Made by a program: the position numbers and the translations under genes. The notes beneath the pieces are model-generated. The model was not told where the DNA came from and ran no database searches. It saw only the letters and a list, made by a program, of their open reading frames with translations. From assembly GCF_009914755.1 (NCBI RefSeq), contig NC_060940.1: a DNA stretch of 64,000 nucleotides; one strand, written 5' to 3'. Position 1 is the stretch's first letter. The number at the start of each line of letters is the position of its first letter. This document shows, piece by piece, positions 11,261 to 15,740 of this stretch. Source of the stretch: the human T2T-CHM13v2.0 reference genome, Homo sapiens.

Positions 11261-12419
11261 CACGGACCCCTGAACATCCTCTAGCCTCTGAATCCAGCAA
11301 GGCCGCGCTCATATCAGCTCTCCTGCGGTTAAACGGTGGCCCCGGGGCTCTGTGGCTGGAGGCTGCTCACCCAGCGTGGGCTCTGCTGGCCCCTGCCAGC
11401 CCCTGCAGCCGTGATAGGTATCAGCCTTCACAGCTCACTGCCTCCCTCCCAGCAGGGCCTGGCTTGGCCCTCCCACGGGCAGGGGATGGGCAGACAGGGA
11501 GGGGCACCCGGGACCCCCACAGCAAATCACTTCTCTCCTGGGAGAGCTGGCCACACCCTCCACGCCCACCCTGGAATGGGCTCTGGAGCCCACATCGCCC
11601 CCCCAGGAGGAGAAGCAGTTCCTGCCTGCGTCCAGCCGGGCTGGGGCCAGTCCAAGCAGGCTGGCAGCGGCCCCATTAACTACCAGGGAGATAGCATCAG
11701 CCCCGACCCTGCCTCGGGGCAGCTAGAGCTGGGGTGCTGCCTGGCCAGGCGCGGAGTGCTGTGGGGACAGGTCCCAGCCGGGCCCCTCTACCCAGAGGCT
11801 TCCTGGAGGGGCTGCAGGGGGCTCTGGGCAGCCAGGAACTGTTCCCAAGTCCCGAGTCTGAGGGAGACTCCCTGTCCTCAGCCCCCGCCCCCCATATGTC
11901 CACTGCACCCCATATGTCCACTGCACCTCAGTTTCTCACCCCCACTGAGCAGACAGGTGAGCATGGCCTTGCTGGGGGCAACAGCACCCGTCTCCCAGGT
12001 GTGGAGACACGACCTCCTTCGCTGTCACCCGTGGGGAGCAGGACAGGCCTCATGGAGGGTGCCTCAGCCAGCAGGTCACCCGCCTGTGGTCCAGACCCAA
12101 GGACCCTGCTTGGGGGTGGCAGCCTGGGGCTGCCTTGCCACTTGGAGTAATGAACTTGCTGGTTGTGGGGGGACCATGGGGGACCCCTGGAGGGGGGTGG
12201 GCTGCATGGCATCTGGCCGTGTAGGGGACGTGGGAATAGTGTCCGGGCAGAGGGCGCAGCCTGCAACAAGGCGCGGAGGCAGGAACACCACAGCATGGGG
12301 AGTCCTCAGGGGACCTGGTTTTTCTTTCATAGAAGCTTCAGGGGCCAAGGCCGGAGACTGCACTCTCCCTCCTCCACCCGGCCCAGCTGCGTCCCTGCCA
12401 GTGGCTCCTCCCACTTCCT

Positions 12420-12492
12420 CCAGTTCTAGTTTCCAACAACAGAGGCTGCAGCCACCCAGCCCCGAAGCAGGGCCCAGCGAGACAGGGCCCAG
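12420..12492 (+). other. NHLRC4: NHLRC4 first exon (5' end approximate)
   Basis: Strong donor CAG|GTAAGA at 12492/93; matching acceptor ttctctctcttgcag|12913. Confidence 0.7.
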
Positions 12493-12945
12493 GTAAGAGA
12501 CCCCTCCCCCCGGCCTCTCTCGGTGGGGCAGGTGGAGGCCCTCGGAATAGGCTGCCTCGCCCCTAAGGGGTCAGAAGTCTCCCTGACCTAGGGGCTCGGG
12601 TAGAAGGGCTGTGTGTGGGTGACCGCCCCCCCGCCGTAGAAAGGGGTTCCACAGGCAGATGGATTTGAGAAATGTTGCTTATCTGTCTGAGGCCCATGAG
12701 CTCATCTGGGGCTCAGGGGAAAACCCACAGCGAGCTCCACGGGTCATGTGTCTCCCAGACTCAAGTCCCAGGCACCTAGACACTAGGGTGGCCGCTGGGC
12801 TTGGTGGCCAGGTAGACCCTCAGGACCAGGAGGACCCGGCCTCATAGGAAGAAACTGGAGGAGTGACTTTGCCATTCCCACACACAGTGGGGCCTTATTC
12901 TCTCTCTTGCAGCCCCAAGCGTGACCCAGCTGCAGAGAAGCTGAG

Positions 12946-13464
12946 ACGGTGATTCGGACTGACTGGACTCTGGCCTCCAGGTGTCTGCACCTCACACTGG
13001 ACCCACCTGGAGACTCCACGGGCTCCCGGCAGCTCCGGCTGCTTGGGTGGATCCGGGTGCCCGCAGGGGCTGTGGGAGGGCCCCGGGGCCTGCACTGCTC
13101 CCCCGATGGCCTGCTCTTCCTCACGGCCGGGGCTGCACCCTGTGTCCACGTGCTAGATCTGGAGGGACGCCCCATCTGCCTCCTGCCCTGCCGCACTCCG
13201 GGGAGCGGGGCCTTCGTTCCAGAGGACGTGGCTGTGACAGCGTCAGGGCTTGTGGTGGTCAGCGATCCCATCCATGGGGCTGTCCATGCACTCCAGCACA
13301 CAGCCCGGGACCCCGGGGGCCACTGGGTGACAGTGGGCACCTTCCTGTCTCCCCGAGGGCTGGCTGTGGATGCCCTCAACCGCCTCCTGGTGACGGACTA
13401 CTTGCCTGGGGCTGTGCACAGCTTCTCGTTGGGTCCTGCTTGGGAGCCCCTGGCCCCAGCCTCC
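12946..13464 (+). CDS. NHLRC4: Putative AUG-less N-terminal extension of NHLRC4 encoding three further NHL blades
   Basis: Frame open from 12925; NHL motifs at 13081 (PRGLHCSPDG), 13219 (PEDVAVTASG) and 13351 (PRGLAVDALN); near-cognate codons ACG 12946, CTG 12970 and CTG 12997 in good Kozak context. Confidence 0.7.
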
Positions 13465-13836
13465 ATGCTGGGTCTGGAGGGCCCCTGCTGGGTGGGCCCA
13501 GGGCCTGATGGGGGCCTTGCTGTGAGTGAGGAGTTTGGGGATGTGAGGCTGTTTGGCAGTGCCCGCCAACCCCTGGGCTCCCTGGGGGGCTGGACGGGGC
13601 ACACTTTCGGCTGCCCAGCGGGCATCTGCTCCAACTCAGAGGGCAATGTTATTGTGGCAGACGAGCAGAGGCGCCAGGTGACCCTGTTTCCCCGGGCTGG
13701 GCCACCCATCTGCCTGGTGTCAGAGGGGCTTGGGCAGCCCTTGGGAGTGGCCTGTGCACCCCAGGGCCAGCTCCTGGTGGCTGATGCCAAGGACAACTCC
13801 ATCAAGGTGTACCAGGGCCTCAAGGAGCTGGCCTGA
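13465..13836 (+). CDS. NHLRC4: NHL-repeat protein 4, AUG-initiated CDS (123 aa; last three NHL blades)
   Basis: MLGLEGPCWVG...PAGICSNSEGNVIVADE...PLGVACAPQGQLLVADAKDNSIKVYQGLKELA*. Confidence 0.88.
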   Translation: MLGLEGPCWVGPGPDGGLAVSEEFGDVRLFGSARQPLGSLGGWTGHTFGCPAGICSNSEGNVIVADEQRRQVTLFPRAGPPICLVSEGLGQPLGVACAPQGQLLVADAKDNSIKVYQGLKELA

Positions 13837-14647
13837 CCTGAGGCTGGGTTGGAGCAGCCCTCCTGTGCCTGAGGCCAGCTCCCAGGCCCTTGGATCACCG
13901 CGGGAGGAACCCTCAGGATGGGTGGAGCCTCCAGGCTATGGGCATTGCCTGCCTGATGCCAGCACCACCTGGGCTGGGCCCTGGGCTTGGCTCGAGTTCT
14001 CCTGCTGGTGAGGCTCCGGATCTCAGGAGCAGCCCTGAGTCTGCTTCCCAGGCTGCCCCTGCCAGGCCTGCAGCCTCCCCAGCCAGGGCTGCTCTCTGCT
14101 GTCCCCATTCAGTGCCCTGGCCCCTGCATTCATGCCCCCCACACCCCCTCAGGCCCTGTGCCTGGACTTTGGGGCTGGCAGCTGAAGCCTTGAGATCCTG
14201 GGCCAGCTGCCGGCACACAGCTAGGCAGACTCTCCCACCAGGTGCCCCTGCCCAGGCCTCCTAATCGGGGGCAGACAGGCAGGGAGGGTGTGGCTGGGCT
14301 GGGCTGGGCGGGGCGGCCTGGGGCAGGGGTGTGGCCCCTAAATGTCCCCAACCTCAGAGGGACCTAGAGTCCTGAGCCTCCAGTAGCTTCTCTGGGCCTG
14401 GCAGAGGTAAGGGGGAGGCAACCCTGGAGTGTCTGGAGGCCCATGGCTGGCTGAACCCTGGATGCCTTTTCTTCCGCGTCCCCATGAATGAAAGCTGTCT
14501 GGGCCTTCATTCTGCAGACAGGGACAAACAGCTCCATGCTGTTTGTCCTCCCAGTGCAGCCGTGCTGGGAGGGTCTGGGGGAGCTTCCTACAAGGAGAGA
14601 CTCCTGCTGCTTTGGAAAACTGAGAAAAAATAGGGGTCTAACCCTCT

Positions 14648-14682
14648 CCTCCCATTTTACAAGTGGGGAAATGAGGCGTGAA
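14648..14682. mobile_element. MIR core fragment
   Basis: cccattttacaagtggggaaatgaggc resembles the MIR core cccattttacagatgaggaaactgaggc. Confidence 0.55.
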
Positions 14683-14891
14683 AGGAGAGGCGTCTGGGTT
14701 ACTCCGTGGGTCTGGGGTCCAGGGAAGGGCCTGTATGGGGGAGGGAGCTGGGAGGGGACGGTGTCTGGCTCTACCCCTGTGGGGTGGGGAGGTGGGGCTC
14801 CCCTGTATCACAGGACATCCCCCCTGAGAGGTCCCTCATATGTCTGGGTCCTGTGGGTGGGGGACTAACTGCGCAATGTAGTTAGGTGCTC

Positions 14892-14897
14892 AATAAA
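14892..14897 (+). terminator. NHLRC4: NHLRC4 poly(A) signal AATAAA
   Basis: AATAAA ~1.05 kb after the stop, in the context tagttaggtgctcaataaa. Confidence 0.8.
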
Positions 14898-15049
14898 CGG
14901 AGTTGCCGCTGAGGTCTGGGCTGGGGTCTTGTTCCTGGGATCGGGAGGGGCTGGACGCCTGTGTGTTCTCTCCTGACGATCGCTGGCGGCAGCCTCTGGG
15001 CTGGTCCTACCAGGGCTCAAAATTCCCGGCACCACTGGCCTTGGGGATC

Positions 15050-15740
15050 TGGGGGCGGCCCCTCTGCAGACAACAGAGTGACGGGGGCGGGACCGGGCTG
15101 GGGCTGGGGCCTTCCTGGAATCCCGCAGGGCCTGGGGACCTGTTCACTTGGGGAGGCTGGGAGCCAGGCGGGGTCCGGGTTCCACGAAGGCCAGGTCCAG
15201 TCAGTTTCTCAGGTGAGGAAACCGAGCTGACGCGGGGCTGGCGGCCCGGAGGCAGGCTCGGGAGGTCCGGGCCTGGGGACTGGGCGGGCACGCTGCGCCG
15301 CGGAACGCTCGGGTCGGGCGGGCGGGCGGGCAGCCCGGGCGCCTTTGGGGGCCGGACCGTCGCGCGGCAACGCGCGGAGCCGGCGGAAGTGGGGCTCGGG
15401 TCCCGCGGCGGGGCTGGAGGCAGCGAGCGCCGTCGTCTGCCCGGGCCCGCCCATCGGGGTCCCCAACCCCATCCGGACCCCGCCGCCCGAGCGCGCGGCC
15501 CCGGAAGCACCCGGTGAGCAGGGGGGGTGGGCGGCGCGCGGCGGGACCTCGGGCAGCGCCCCTGCGGCTCCGGGCCTGGGCTGGGGGCTCCGCACTCCCG
15601 CCCGCGGCGCCGCTGCTTTCTCCTCCCAGAAGTGGGGCCGCCCCCGGGCCCGCGCCGACCTGGGCCCCTGTGGACCCTGTGCAAGGGCGGTCGGCGGCCC
15701 GGGCCTGGCTGTGGGCCCTTCGCAGTTGTCCCGGTTTGCA
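15050..15740. promoter_or_regulatory. CpG island / PIGQ promoter with ETS (GCGGAAGTG 15383-15391) and GC boxes
   Basis: CpG-dense; exon 1 donor CCG|GTGAGC at 15513/14. Confidence 0.85.
15390..15513 (+). other. PIGQ: PIGQ non-coding exon 1 (5' end approximate)
   Basis: Donor at 15513/14 in the CpG island; no ATG in the exon. Confidence 0.75.

What the first reader, a model, noticed from the sequence alone, without database searches (positions are those of the whole stretch)
12925..13836. Hidden full six-bladed NHL propeller: NHLRC4 probably starts at a non-AUG codon ~160-175 codons upstream of its AUG
Seen: after an in-frame TGA (12922-12924) the frame is open to 13836 with no in-frame ATG until 13465. 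It encodes six evenly spaced NHL blades starting at 13081 (PRGLHCSPDG), 13219 (PEDVAVTASG), 13351 (PRGLAVDALN), 13483 (PCWVGPGPDG), 13615 (PAGICSNSEG) and 13738 (PLGVACAPQG), spaced 46/44/44/44/41 aa. The 123-aa AUG product has only the last three. Near-cognate starts with purine at -3 and G at +4 precede blade 1: GAG-ACG-G (12946, 296 aa), ACT-CTG-G (12970, 288 aa) and ACA-CTG-G (12997, 279 aa). Four out-of-frame ATGs (13106, 13274, 13286, 13370) would hinder scanning to 13465. Established: NHL domains fold as six-bladed beta-propellers. Inference: the real protein is a ~280-296-aa stand-alone propeller, with LRLLGWIRV possibly closing the ring, and half of it is misread as 5' UTR. I recall NHLRC4 may have appeared in comparative screens for non-AUG extensions, so novelty needs checking.
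Basis: partly seen in the sequence, partly recalled or inferred. Interest (0 to 1): 0.9.

Follow-up and report, generated by a model that had tools for sequence, protein, structure and literature searches.

The report
Hidden front half of NHLRC4 propeller
The stretch annotated as the 5' untranslated leader of human NHLRC4 still encodes, intact and conserved, the first three blades of a six-bladed propeller protein found from sharks to mammals, so the 123-residue reference protein is probably only the back half of the real product, which would have to start at a non-AUG codon.

Summary
Observation confirmed. After TGA 12922-12924 the frame is open to 13836, and the first in-frame ATG is 13465.

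The "5' UTR" part (12925-13464) matches Pfam NHL on its own. It is 78-83% identical, without gaps, to six full-length eutherian orthologue models, as conserved as the annotated CDS at 75-82%.

AlphaFold2 folds the long ORF as a six-bladed propeller (pLDDT 86) that matches TRIM2/TRIM3 NHL crystal structures.

NHLRC4 occurs across jawed vertebrates. Non-eutherian orthologues (336-375 aa) start with a conserved two-helix region that carries the AUG. No eutherian model has that region, and I could not find it in the human genome.

The annotated Met181 is Val in 32 of 44 non-eutherian sequences, and is not Met in 15 of 31 eutherian models.

Best reading (about 0.6): a roughly 279-aa propeller initiated at a near-cognate codon, most likely CTG 12997. 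Translation itself is untested. New World monkey models show frame damage, so decay in primates remains a real rival.

I found no paper describing this. The closed supplements may list the gene.

The parts
12422..12492 (+). RefSeq exon 1 (non-coding, no ATG). Its 'VSNNRG' reading frame is in phase with the NHL frame through the 12492|12888 junction, but that path hits TGA 12922.
   Evidence: bat and gopher models read the same peptide.
12922..12924 (+). In-frame TGA that bounds the open frame on the 5' side. It lies inside exon 2 of both RefSeq transcripts (acceptors 12888 and 12913).
12925..12996 (+). Poorly conserved leader or disordered tail (residues 1-24). It holds ACG 12946, GTG 12949, ATT 12952, CTG 12970 and CTG 12985. 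Over about 12925-12950, species read different frames.
   Evidence: Identity to eutherians over residues 1-41 is 26-53%. Titi and kangaroo-rat models read the human +1 frame here, camel reads frame 0. pLDDT is below 50 for residues 1-32.
12968..12980 (+). Pyrimidine-rich stretch ending in AG (acceptor-like), lying exactly where homology to non-eutherian NHLRC4 resumes. Possibly the 3' end of the ancestral first intron (inference only).
   Evidence: Sequence; homology boundary. No splice-site scoring was run.
12997..12999 (+). CTG, the best candidate start (C at -4, A at -3, G at +4). It would give 279 aa, about 28.6 kDa.
   Evidence: Leu in 8 of 8 eutherian and 41 of 41 non-eutherian sequences covering the column. 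Horse has Met at the preceding codon. Context rule from passages of PMC13754004.
13039..13056 (+). First beta-strand (residues 39-44, LLGWIR). Probably the ring-closing fourth strand of blade 6.
   Evidence: Strand order: 24 strands in total, and the last blade has only three C-terminal strands. Inferred from the strand count, because coordinates could not be inspected.
13081..13188 (+). Blade 1 (residues 53-88).
   Evidence: strands 53-58, 64-68, 73-77, 83-88.
13219..13341 (+). Blade 2 (residues 99-139).
   Evidence: strands 102-104, 110-114, 119-126, 129-139.
13351..13467 (+). Blade 3 (residues 143-181). Its last strand ends on the annotated Met181.
   Evidence: strands 143-148, 154-158, 163-169, 175-181. 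Pfam NHL best stretch in the upstream part is residues 140-159.
13106..13393 (+). Span holding the four out-of-frame upstream ATGs (13106, 13274, 13286, 13370) and their short ORFs of 16, 18, 14 and 7 codons. All four have a pyrimidine at -3.
13465..13467 (+). Annotated ATG (Met181), in weak context (T at -3, C at +4). The residue is variable among orthologues.
13483..13581 (+). Blade 4 (residues 187-219).
13615..13719 (+). Blade 5 (residues 231-265).
13738..13812 (+). Blade 6, three strands (residues 272-296).
13834..13836 (+). Stop codon TGA.

Best explanation
Window 12925-13464 is not leader sequence in the evolutionary sense. It is the N-terminal half (ring-closing strand plus blades 1-3) of the conserved NHLRC4 coding region.

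Ancestral NHLRC4, from sharks to marsupials, is a two-helix N-terminal region of about 55-75 residues that begins with the AUG, followed by a six-bladed NHL propeller.

In the eutherian stem the helical region and its AUG were lost. The propeller ORF stayed under protein-level constraint without any conserved AUG.

The most likely mechanism in human is this. Scanning 40S subunits meet no AUG in any frame in the 289-nt (or 264-nt) leader. A fraction initiates at a near-cognate codon in the NHL frame, most likely CUG 12997, giving a stand-alone propeller of about 279 aa and 29 kDa with a short disordered tail. Ribosomes that scan past it meet four weak out-of-frame AUGs and then the weak AUG 13465, which could yield a minor 123-aa fragment.

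Shown here: the ORF, the homology, the conservation, the fold, the loss of the ancestral start region and the variability of Met181. Inferred: that the long form is translated in human, and which codon is used.
For: - Pfam NHL on the upstream 180 aa alone: E=1.3e-6.
- Full-length orthologues cover 89-93% of the 303-aa frame in seven eutherian models, and the marsupial and reptile models cover 87-92%. 50 proteins from sharks to mammals were found with the non-eutherian profile.
- The upstream part (residues 42-180) is 78-83% identical to horse, camel, bat, gopher, sheep and buffalo over 139 ungapped columns. The annotated part is 75-82%.
- Human-unique changes at sites invariant in five other eutherians: 6 of 95 upstream and 2 of 74 downstream.
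- The codon-position GC pattern matches the CDS.
- AlphaFold2: pLDDT 86.1, pTM 0.82, 24 strands. Foldseek top hits are TRIM2/TRIM3 NHL, TM 0.79-0.80 normalised to the target.
- Met181 in eutherian models: M 16, V 7, I 5, L 2, P 1. In non-eutherians: V 32, I 7, A 3, L 1, M 1.
- Annotated starts differ by species, and the sheep and buffalo models have no start Met; the buffalo entry is named partial.
- The ancestral N-terminal region is absent from the window (best E 0.73) and from the genome (best E 3.3 elsewhere; none at all with the gharial query).
- All 4 of the 4 strong-context CTG/GTG/ACG codons before the first AUG are in the NHL frame.
- Leu at CTG 12997 is invariant, and horse has Met at the adjacent codon.
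Against: - No call shows translation: no Ribo-seq, N-terminal peptide or mass-spectrometry evidence was available.
- No mammalian genomic DNA was available, so no dN/dS or PhyloCSF could be run, and the codon (as opposed to the residue) at 12997 in other species is unknown.
- The invariant Leu is also invariant in non-eutherians, where it is an internal helix residue. Its conservation is therefore not specific evidence for a start.
- The 4-of-4 frame bias is partly expected, because coding frames are purine- and G-rich at codon position 1.
- There is no stabilising hairpin downstream of 12997 (z = -1.13; 23 of 200 shuffles fold at least as well), and no full NAT1-type GCC motif.
- Two New World monkey models carry out-of-frame stretches: titi in blades 2-3 with the C-terminus missing, squirrel monkey inside the annotated CDS. 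Colugos, two phyllostomid bats and some murids also look damaged. The gene is therefore dispensable in some lineages and could be relaxed in primates.
- Human-unique changes are slightly more frequent upstream (6/95 against 2/74; too few to tell).
Confidence: 0.6

Rival explanations
1. Relic reading. The upstream half is an untranslated remnant in human. After the ancestral start was lost, primates kept at most the 123-aa AUG product (perhaps self-associating, as three-bladed fragments can), or the whole gene is drifting towards a pseudogene. On this reading the open frame is residual.
For: - Titi and squirrel-monkey models have frameshifted stretches, and the titi model lacks blade 6.
- Several other eutherian models are damaged or flagged low quality.
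- An open frame of this length is not rare in this GC-rich window.
- Met181 is present in 16 of 31 eutherian models.
- The PDB holds three-bladed fragments that assemble into closed propellers: 3ww8 Pizza3 and 6r5z.
Against: - 139 ungapped columns at 78-83% identity to distant eutherians, no worse than the annotated CDS.
- Only 6 of 95 human-unique changes at conserved sites. A neutral run since the eutherian radiation should give far more changes plus indels (rough expectation from general rates, not computed). This excludes an old loss but not a recent one.
- Met181 is absent in 15 of 31 eutherian models, whose propeller ORFs are nevertheless conserved.
- The 123-aa product starts on the last residue of a blade-3 strand and lacks the ring-closing strand.
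- AUG 13465 has a weak context behind four upstream AUGs.
Confidence: 0.25
2. Unannotated AUG. The long form is made, but from an AUG in an unannotated upstream exon or alternative start site, spliced in phase to an acceptor downstream of TGA 12922 (for example after 12935 or 12980).
For: - The exon-1 frame is in phase with the NHL frame, and acceptor-like AGs exist at 12935 and 12980.
- Bat and gopher models read the exon-1 peptide 'VSNNRG' into the NHL frame from their own upstream ATGs.
- A 386-codon stop-free frame (11336-12496) runs into exon 1 in that phase.
Against: - Both RefSeq transcripts include the TGA, and exon 1 has no ATG.
- Eutherian N-termini upstream of residue 14-20 share no conserved peptide, and some are in different frames.
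- The 386-codon frame has no Pfam match.
- The ancestral N-terminal region is not detectable anywhere in the genome.
Confidence: 0.1
3. Chance. The upstream frame is an open frame in GC-rich DNA whose NHL-like motifs were over-read.
For: 552 of 20,000 shuffles stay open. There are 71 stop-free runs of at least 180 codons in the window, and a 175-codon ORF in another frame overlaps it.
Against: An independent Pfam hit, orthologues from sharks to horse that align residue by residue, and a confident six-blade model.
Confidence: 0.01

Closest known systems
NHL domains of TRIM-NHL proteins (TRIM2, TRIM3, TRIM32, TRIM71/LIN-41, Brat, Thin)
   Same: Six-bladed NHL beta-propeller. Foldseek TM is 0.76-0.80 (normalised to the target) to TRIM2, TRIM3 and TRIM71 crystal structures over 282-289 aligned columns. 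TRIM32 is the only other human locus hit by the long ORF.
   Different: Only 20-24% identity. There is no RING, B-box, coiled coil or filamin domain, so this is a stand-alone propeller. RNA or substrate binding was not examined.
Non-eutherian NHLRC4 orthologues (sharks, coelacanth, amphibians, reptiles, birds, marsupials; 336-375 aa)
   Same: The same propeller, 40-58% identical to human across both halves. This is a jawed-vertebrate-wide single-copy type of gene.
   Different: They begin with an AUG and a conserved N-terminal region predicted as two helices (residues 3-37 and 47-72 in gharial, pLDDT 45-78). Eutherian models lack it, and homology resumes at human residue 20-21.
[quoted passage not shown]
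   Same: A conserved coding region with no in-frame AUG at its head, so a near-cognate start is required. A downstream AUG was picked by annotation.
   Different: For NHLRC4 no initiation site has been mapped, and the extension is a 156-172-codon folded half-domain rather than a short tail. The cause appears to be loss of an ancestral AUG-bearing region. NHLRC4 is not named in that paper's main text; its gene lists are in supplements I could not open.
Three-bladed propeller fragments that self-assemble (Pizza3, 3ww8; 6r5z)
   Same: About 125-130 residues and three blades, like the 123-aa AUG product. Both were detected by sequence.
   Different: Those are designed or symmetric repeats. The human fragment is asymmetric and its third blade has only three strands. 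Assembly was not tested, because the two-protein predictor was off.

Membership tests
NHL-repeat six-bladed beta-propeller (Pfam PF01436) | NHL repeat profile matches above the curated cutoff | tested here: met
   Full frame 67.4 bits, upstream 180 aa alone 28.6 bits, annotated 123 aa 44.5 bits; cutoff 20.
NHL-repeat six-bladed beta-propeller (Pfam PF01436) | Six four-stranded blades forming a closed ring | tested here: met
   AlphaFold2 gives 24 strands, pLDDT 86.1, pTM 0.82. Foldseek probability is 1.00 to TRIM2/3/71, Thin and Brat NHL structures. Ring closure by strand 39-44 is inferred from strand order, not from contacts.
NHLRC4 orthologue group | Collinear best-match orthologues over the whole propeller | tested here: met
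   The only other human locus hit is TRIM32, at 44% identity over 72 residues.
NHLRC4 orthologue group | Ancestral N-terminal two-helix region beginning with Met | tested here: not met
   Absent from all 8 long eutherian models, from the window and from the genome. The eutherian form is a truncated variant.
Non-AUG-initiated mammalian coding sequences | Protein-coding conservation upstream of the first in-frame AUG, with no in-frame AUG available | tested here: met
   Met at protein level only: 78-83% identity with no gaps, and no ATG. Codon-level tests (PhyloCSF, dN/dS) could not be run because no mammalian DNA was available.
Non-AUG-initiated mammalian coding sequences | A conserved near-cognate codon in a favourable context at the head of the conserved region | tested here: inconclusive
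   CTG 12997 has C at -4, A at -3 and G at +4, and its Leu is conserved in 8 of 8 eutherian models. Codon identity in other species is unknown, and the Leu is ancestral.
Non-AUG-initiated mammalian coding sequences | Mapped initiation (initiation-site profiling, N-terminal peptide or start-codon mutagenesis) | not testable with these tools
   No read data or proteomics were on hand. No paper in the library pairs NHLRC4 with 'start codon' or 'ribosome profiling'.
Unitary pseudogene or decaying gene | Frameshifts or premature stops in the conserved coding region | tested here: not met
   The human frame is intact over 303 codons and ungapped against orthologues. Damage is seen in titi, squirrel monkey, colugos and others, not in human.
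Unitary pseudogene or decaying gene | Raised lineage-specific substitution rate | tested here: inconclusive
   Human-unique changes are 6 of 95 upstream and 2 of 74 downstream. The other species range from 0 to 8. The counts are too small to decide.

The most novel reading that the evidence does not exclude
Eutherian NHLRC4 is a gene that outlived the loss of its own start codon. When the AUG-bearing two-helix N-terminal region disappeared in the eutherian stem, the six-bladed propeller went on being made for about 100 million years from a near-cognate codon (CUG 12997 in human), with no conserved AUG. That would make it one of the very few exclusively non-AUG-initiated human proteins. In this case the reference proteome records less than half of the domain.
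Probability: 0.5. Interest if true: 0.75.

Novelty: new member of a known kind. Interest (0 to 1): 0.65.

Why it matters
If the long form is made, the reference protein for a human gene (123 aa, two and three-quarter blades) is a fragment that cannot close a propeller. Structure models, antibodies, variant interpretation and proteomics databases would then all miss 156 or more residues.

Variants in 12997-13464 are currently scored as 5' UTR variants.

It would also add a rare case of obligatory non-AUG initiation with a datable origin: loss of an ancestral AUG-bearing region. That origin bears on the open question of why some genes keep non-AUG starts.

If human instead makes only the short form or nothing, NHLRC4 is an example of a jawed-vertebrate-wide gene caught in lineage-specific decay, and its protein-coding status deserves review.

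Tried and rejected
- **Chance ORF.** Rejected by homology and fold, although openness alone is weak evidence.
- **Relic of the ancestral N-terminal region.** I searched the 64-kb window by tblastn with five non-eutherian N-termini; the best hit was E=0.73. I searched the whole genome with the Tasmanian-devil and gharial N-termini; the best hit was E=3.27 on other chromosomes, and there was no hit for gharial. Nothing was found. The tool notes that an empty answer without a positive control shows little.
- **A start-enhancing hairpin after CTG 12997.** Not supported: z = -1.13.
- **A full NAT1-type GCC context** (motif read in passages of PMC13754004). None of the three candidates has it; this was read by eye.
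- **The 386-codon frame 11336-12496 as a missing coding exon.** It has no Pfam family and no conserved peptide among eutherian models.
- **ACG 12946 or GTG 12949 as the conserved start.** Disfavoured. Titi and kangaroo-rat models read that stretch in the human +1 frame, and camel has Ala at the ACG position.
- **CTG 12970 as the conserved start.** Disfavoured. In ungapped register its Leu is shared by horse only, out of 7 alignable eutherian models.
- **Literature.**
  - NHLRC4 occurs in 36 papers. I saw the listings of 33; none is about its protein or its start.
  - NHLRC4 with 'start codon' gave 0 papers and with 'ribosome profiling' gave 0. With 'translation initiation' it gave 1 paper, an Anolis expression study, irrelevant judging by its title and abstract start.
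  - For PMC9789052 I read the outline, sections 6, 10 and 11, and ran a term search. The main text does not mention NHL.
- **Limits.**
  - The protein searches left out 6815, 21 and 7095 candidates of unnamed source.
  - No human or ape entries were returned.
  - For the column counts I dropped two of the 78 stored proteins: the garbled rhinoceros model and the pigeon PIGQ fusion model.
  - For the AlphaFold2 alignment A2 I used 27 of the 39 proteins then stored, leaving out damaged or low-quality models.
Full report
**1. The observation**

Reading the window directly confirms the finding. TGA sits at 12922-12924. The frame then runs open for 303 codons to the stop at 13834-13836. The first in-frame ATG is at 13465, the annotated start.

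Both RefSeq transcripts (acceptors at 12888 and 12913) include that TGA, and exon 1 has no ATG. The four upstream ATGs (13106, 13274, 13286, 13370) are all in frame +1. All have a pyrimidine at -3, and they open ORFs of 16, 18, 14 and 7 codons. The annotated ATG itself has T at -3 and C at +4.

Openness alone is weak evidence. 552 of 20,000 shuffles keep 180 codons open, the window has 71 stop-free runs of that length, and a 175-codon ORF in another frame overlaps the region.

**2. What the upstream stretch is**

The 180 residues upstream of Met181 match Pfam NHL on their own (E=1.3e-6, 28.6 bits against a cutoff of 20). Their codon-position GC pattern (0.77/0.56/0.76) mirrors the annotated CDS (0.71/0.51/0.76). 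The intron is flat.

A search with the 303-aa frame found 20 proteins among 746 scored candidates; 6815 candidates of unnamed source were left out. The hits include models of 313-376 aa from horse, camel, a horseshoe bat, a pocket gopher, sheep, buffalo, two marsupials and three reptiles, and these cover 87-93% of the frame.

In the alignment, residues 42-180 are 78-83% identical to the six non-primate eutherians over 139 columns without a single gap. The annotated part is 75-82% identical. The first 41 residues are only 26-53% identical.

My rough expectation, from general mammalian neutral rates and not computed here, is that unconstrained sequence at this distance would be near 40-45% identical and riddled with indels. 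The upstream half has therefore been under protein-level constraint in several eutherian orders.

**3. Fold**

AlphaFold2 on a 28-row alignment gives mean pLDDT 86.1 and pTM 0.82. Residues 1-32 are below 50. The model has 24 strands.

By count, then, this strand closes the ring. That is an inference from strand order, because I could not inspect coordinates.

Foldseek against the PDB puts the TRIM2 and TRIM3 NHL crystal structures first (TM 0.79-0.80 normalised to the target, 284-289 columns, 20-22% identity), followed by Thin, TRIM71 and Brat.

Met181 is the last residue of the fourth strand of blade 3. The 123-aa product would therefore hold blades 4 and 5 plus three strands of blade 6, and would lack the closing strand.

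The only other human locus matched by the long frame is the NHL region of TRIM32.

**4. History of the start**

A profile of marsupial and reptile orthologues found 50 proteins among 905 scored candidates; 7095 were left out. They come from catsharks, coelacanth, bichir, paddlefish, amphibians, reptiles, birds and marsupials, and are mostly 336-375 aa.

All of these begin with a strongly conserved N-terminal region starting with Met. In the gharial model it forms two helices (residues 3-37 and 47-72, pLDDT 45-78) ahead of the propeller.

None of the 8 long eutherian models has this region. Homology resumes at human residue 20-21, right after a pyrimidine-rich stretch ending in AG (12968-12980) that looks like a 3' splice site. 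That last point is an inference I did not test.

The region is not detectable in the window (best E 0.73) or elsewhere in the genome.

Upstream of residue 14-20 the eutherian models are unrelated to each other:
- The titi model reads an intronic ORF that corresponds to human 12659.
- The bat and gopher models read the exon-1 peptide from their own ATGs.
- The horse model uses sequence similar to human 11957-12085.
- The sheep and buffalo models (clusters of 20 and 45 members) have no start Met at all, and the buffalo entry is named partial.
- Over 12925-12950 the titi and kangaroo-rat models read what is the +1 frame in human, while camel reads frame 0.

That stretch is therefore not conserved coding.

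**5. The annotated AUG**

Across 76 stored orthologue models (2 of the 78 stored proteins were dropped; see Tried and rejected), the Met181 column reads as follows:

| Group | M | V | I | L | A | P |
|---|---|---|---|---|---|---|
| Eutherian models (31 covering the site) | 16 | 7 | 5 | 2 | 0 | 1 |
| Non-eutherian sequences (44) | 1 | 32 | 7 | 1 | 3 | 0 |

Species that lack this Met are annotated from whatever ATG they happen to have, at four different positions. The 123-aa product is therefore not the conserved product.

**6. Where translation might start**

From the cap to the first AUG (13106) there are 289 or 264 nt with no AUG in any frame. All 4 of the 4 CTG/GTG/ACG codons with a purine at -3 and G at +4 lie in the NHL frame: 12946, 12970, 12997 and 13072. 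This is partly expected from coding-frame composition. GTG 13072 lies downstream of the first strand, which must be translated.

The candidates compare as follows:

| Candidate | Residue | Conservation in the other eutherian models |
|---|---|---|
| CTG 12997 | Leu25 | Leu in 8 of 8, and in 41 of 41 non-eutherians |
| CTG 12985 | Leu21 | Leu in 5 of 8 |
| CTG 12970 | Leu16 | Shared by horse only, of 7 alignable |
| ACG 12946 | Thr8 | Lies in the frame-inconsistent stretch |

CTG 12997 also has C at -4. Passages of PMC13754004 cite this, together with the purine at -3 and G at +4, as critical for non-AUG starts. None of the candidates has the full GCC motif of that paper.

Horse has an ATG at the codon just before position 25.

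I therefore favour CTG 12997, which gives 279 aa and about 28.6 kDa. The invariant Leu is ancestral, though, so this is only a pointer. No special hairpin follows the codon.

**7. Evidence against, and rivals**

Nothing here shows translation.

Two New World monkey models are damaged. The titi model has a 13-residue stretch that matches the human +2 frame in blades 2-3 and ends before blade 6. The squirrel-monkey model has an out-of-frame stretch inside the annotated CDS. Colugos, two phyllostomid bats, a hamster and a grass rat also look damaged or are flagged low quality. The gene is thus dispensable in some lineages.

Human-unique changes at otherwise invariant sites are 6 of 95 upstream and 2 of 74 downstream. 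This rules out an ancient loss of constraint in the human line but not a recent one.

An unannotated AUG exon spliced past the TGA cannot be excluded without transcript data. However, the eutherian models share no conserved N-terminal peptide, which argues against it.

Three-bladed fragments that assemble into rings exist in the PDB (3ww8, 6r5z), so a functional short form is conceivable.

**8. Comparison and novelty**

Structurally this is an ordinary NHL propeller, stand-alone and closest to those of TRIM-NHL proteins.

Mechanistically it would join the few human genes with obligatory non-AUG initiation. EIF4G2, TRPV6, TEAD1 and STIM2 are named in section 10 of PMC9789052. It differs from them in that the hidden part is half of a folded domain, and in that the cause is the loss of an ancestral AUG-bearing region.

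None of the 33 NHLRC4 papers whose listings I saw, and none of the paired searches, addresses this. The gene lists of the large non-AUG screens are in supplements that I could not open, so prior listing remains possible.

I rate the finding as a new member of a known kind, with interest 0.65.

Noticed in passing
window 11336-12496 (+): A 386-codon stop-free frame runs through the NHLRC4 promoter into exon 1. It is in phase with the exon-1 donor and, through the 12492|12888 junction, with the NHL frame. It has no Pfam match and is probably a GC-rich chance frame.
   Followed up: partly
window 12429-12446 (exon 1): The peptide 'VSNNRG', read from human exon 1, also appears in the bat and pocket-gopher gene models. 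That implies about 18 conserved bases close to the transcription start across three mammalian orders. Their function is unknown.
   Followed up: no
window 12968-12980: A pyrimidine-rich stretch ending in AG lies exactly where homology to non-eutherian NHLRC4 resumes. It may be the 3' end of the ancestral first intron, now retained in the eutherian leader.
   Followed up: no
proteins P0008 (titi) and P0039 (squirrel monkey): Both New World monkey models contain stretches that match another reading frame of the human sequence, and the titi model lacks blade 6. This suggests that NHLRC4 is decaying in platyrrhines.
   Followed up: partly
window 13837-15513 and protein P0076: NHLRC4::PIGQ conjoined transcripts are reported in a table of PMC9315513 (passage seen). 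A pigeon model named PIGQ isoform X3 contains an NHLRC4-type propeller. The NHLRC4-PIGQ adjacency and read-through therefore seem old.
   Followed up: partly
proteins P0044, P0065, P0067, P0005: NHLRC4 orthologues carry misleading source names: a turtle 'WAP four-disulfide core domain protein 3', a catshark 'TRIM2-like', a paddlefish 'TRIM32-like' and a kangaroo-rat 'TRIM3-like' fused to a proline-rich N-terminus.
   Followed up: no
window 12981-13508 (+), frame +2: A 175-codon ORF in an alternative frame overlaps blades 1-3. It was taken as a by-product of GC richness and not examined further.
   Followed up: no
protein P0001 (horse), residue aligned to human codon 24 (window 12994-12996): Horse has Met immediately before the invariant Leu of CTG 12997. 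In horse, therefore, an AUG sits at the very place proposed as the human non-AUG start.
   Followed up: partly
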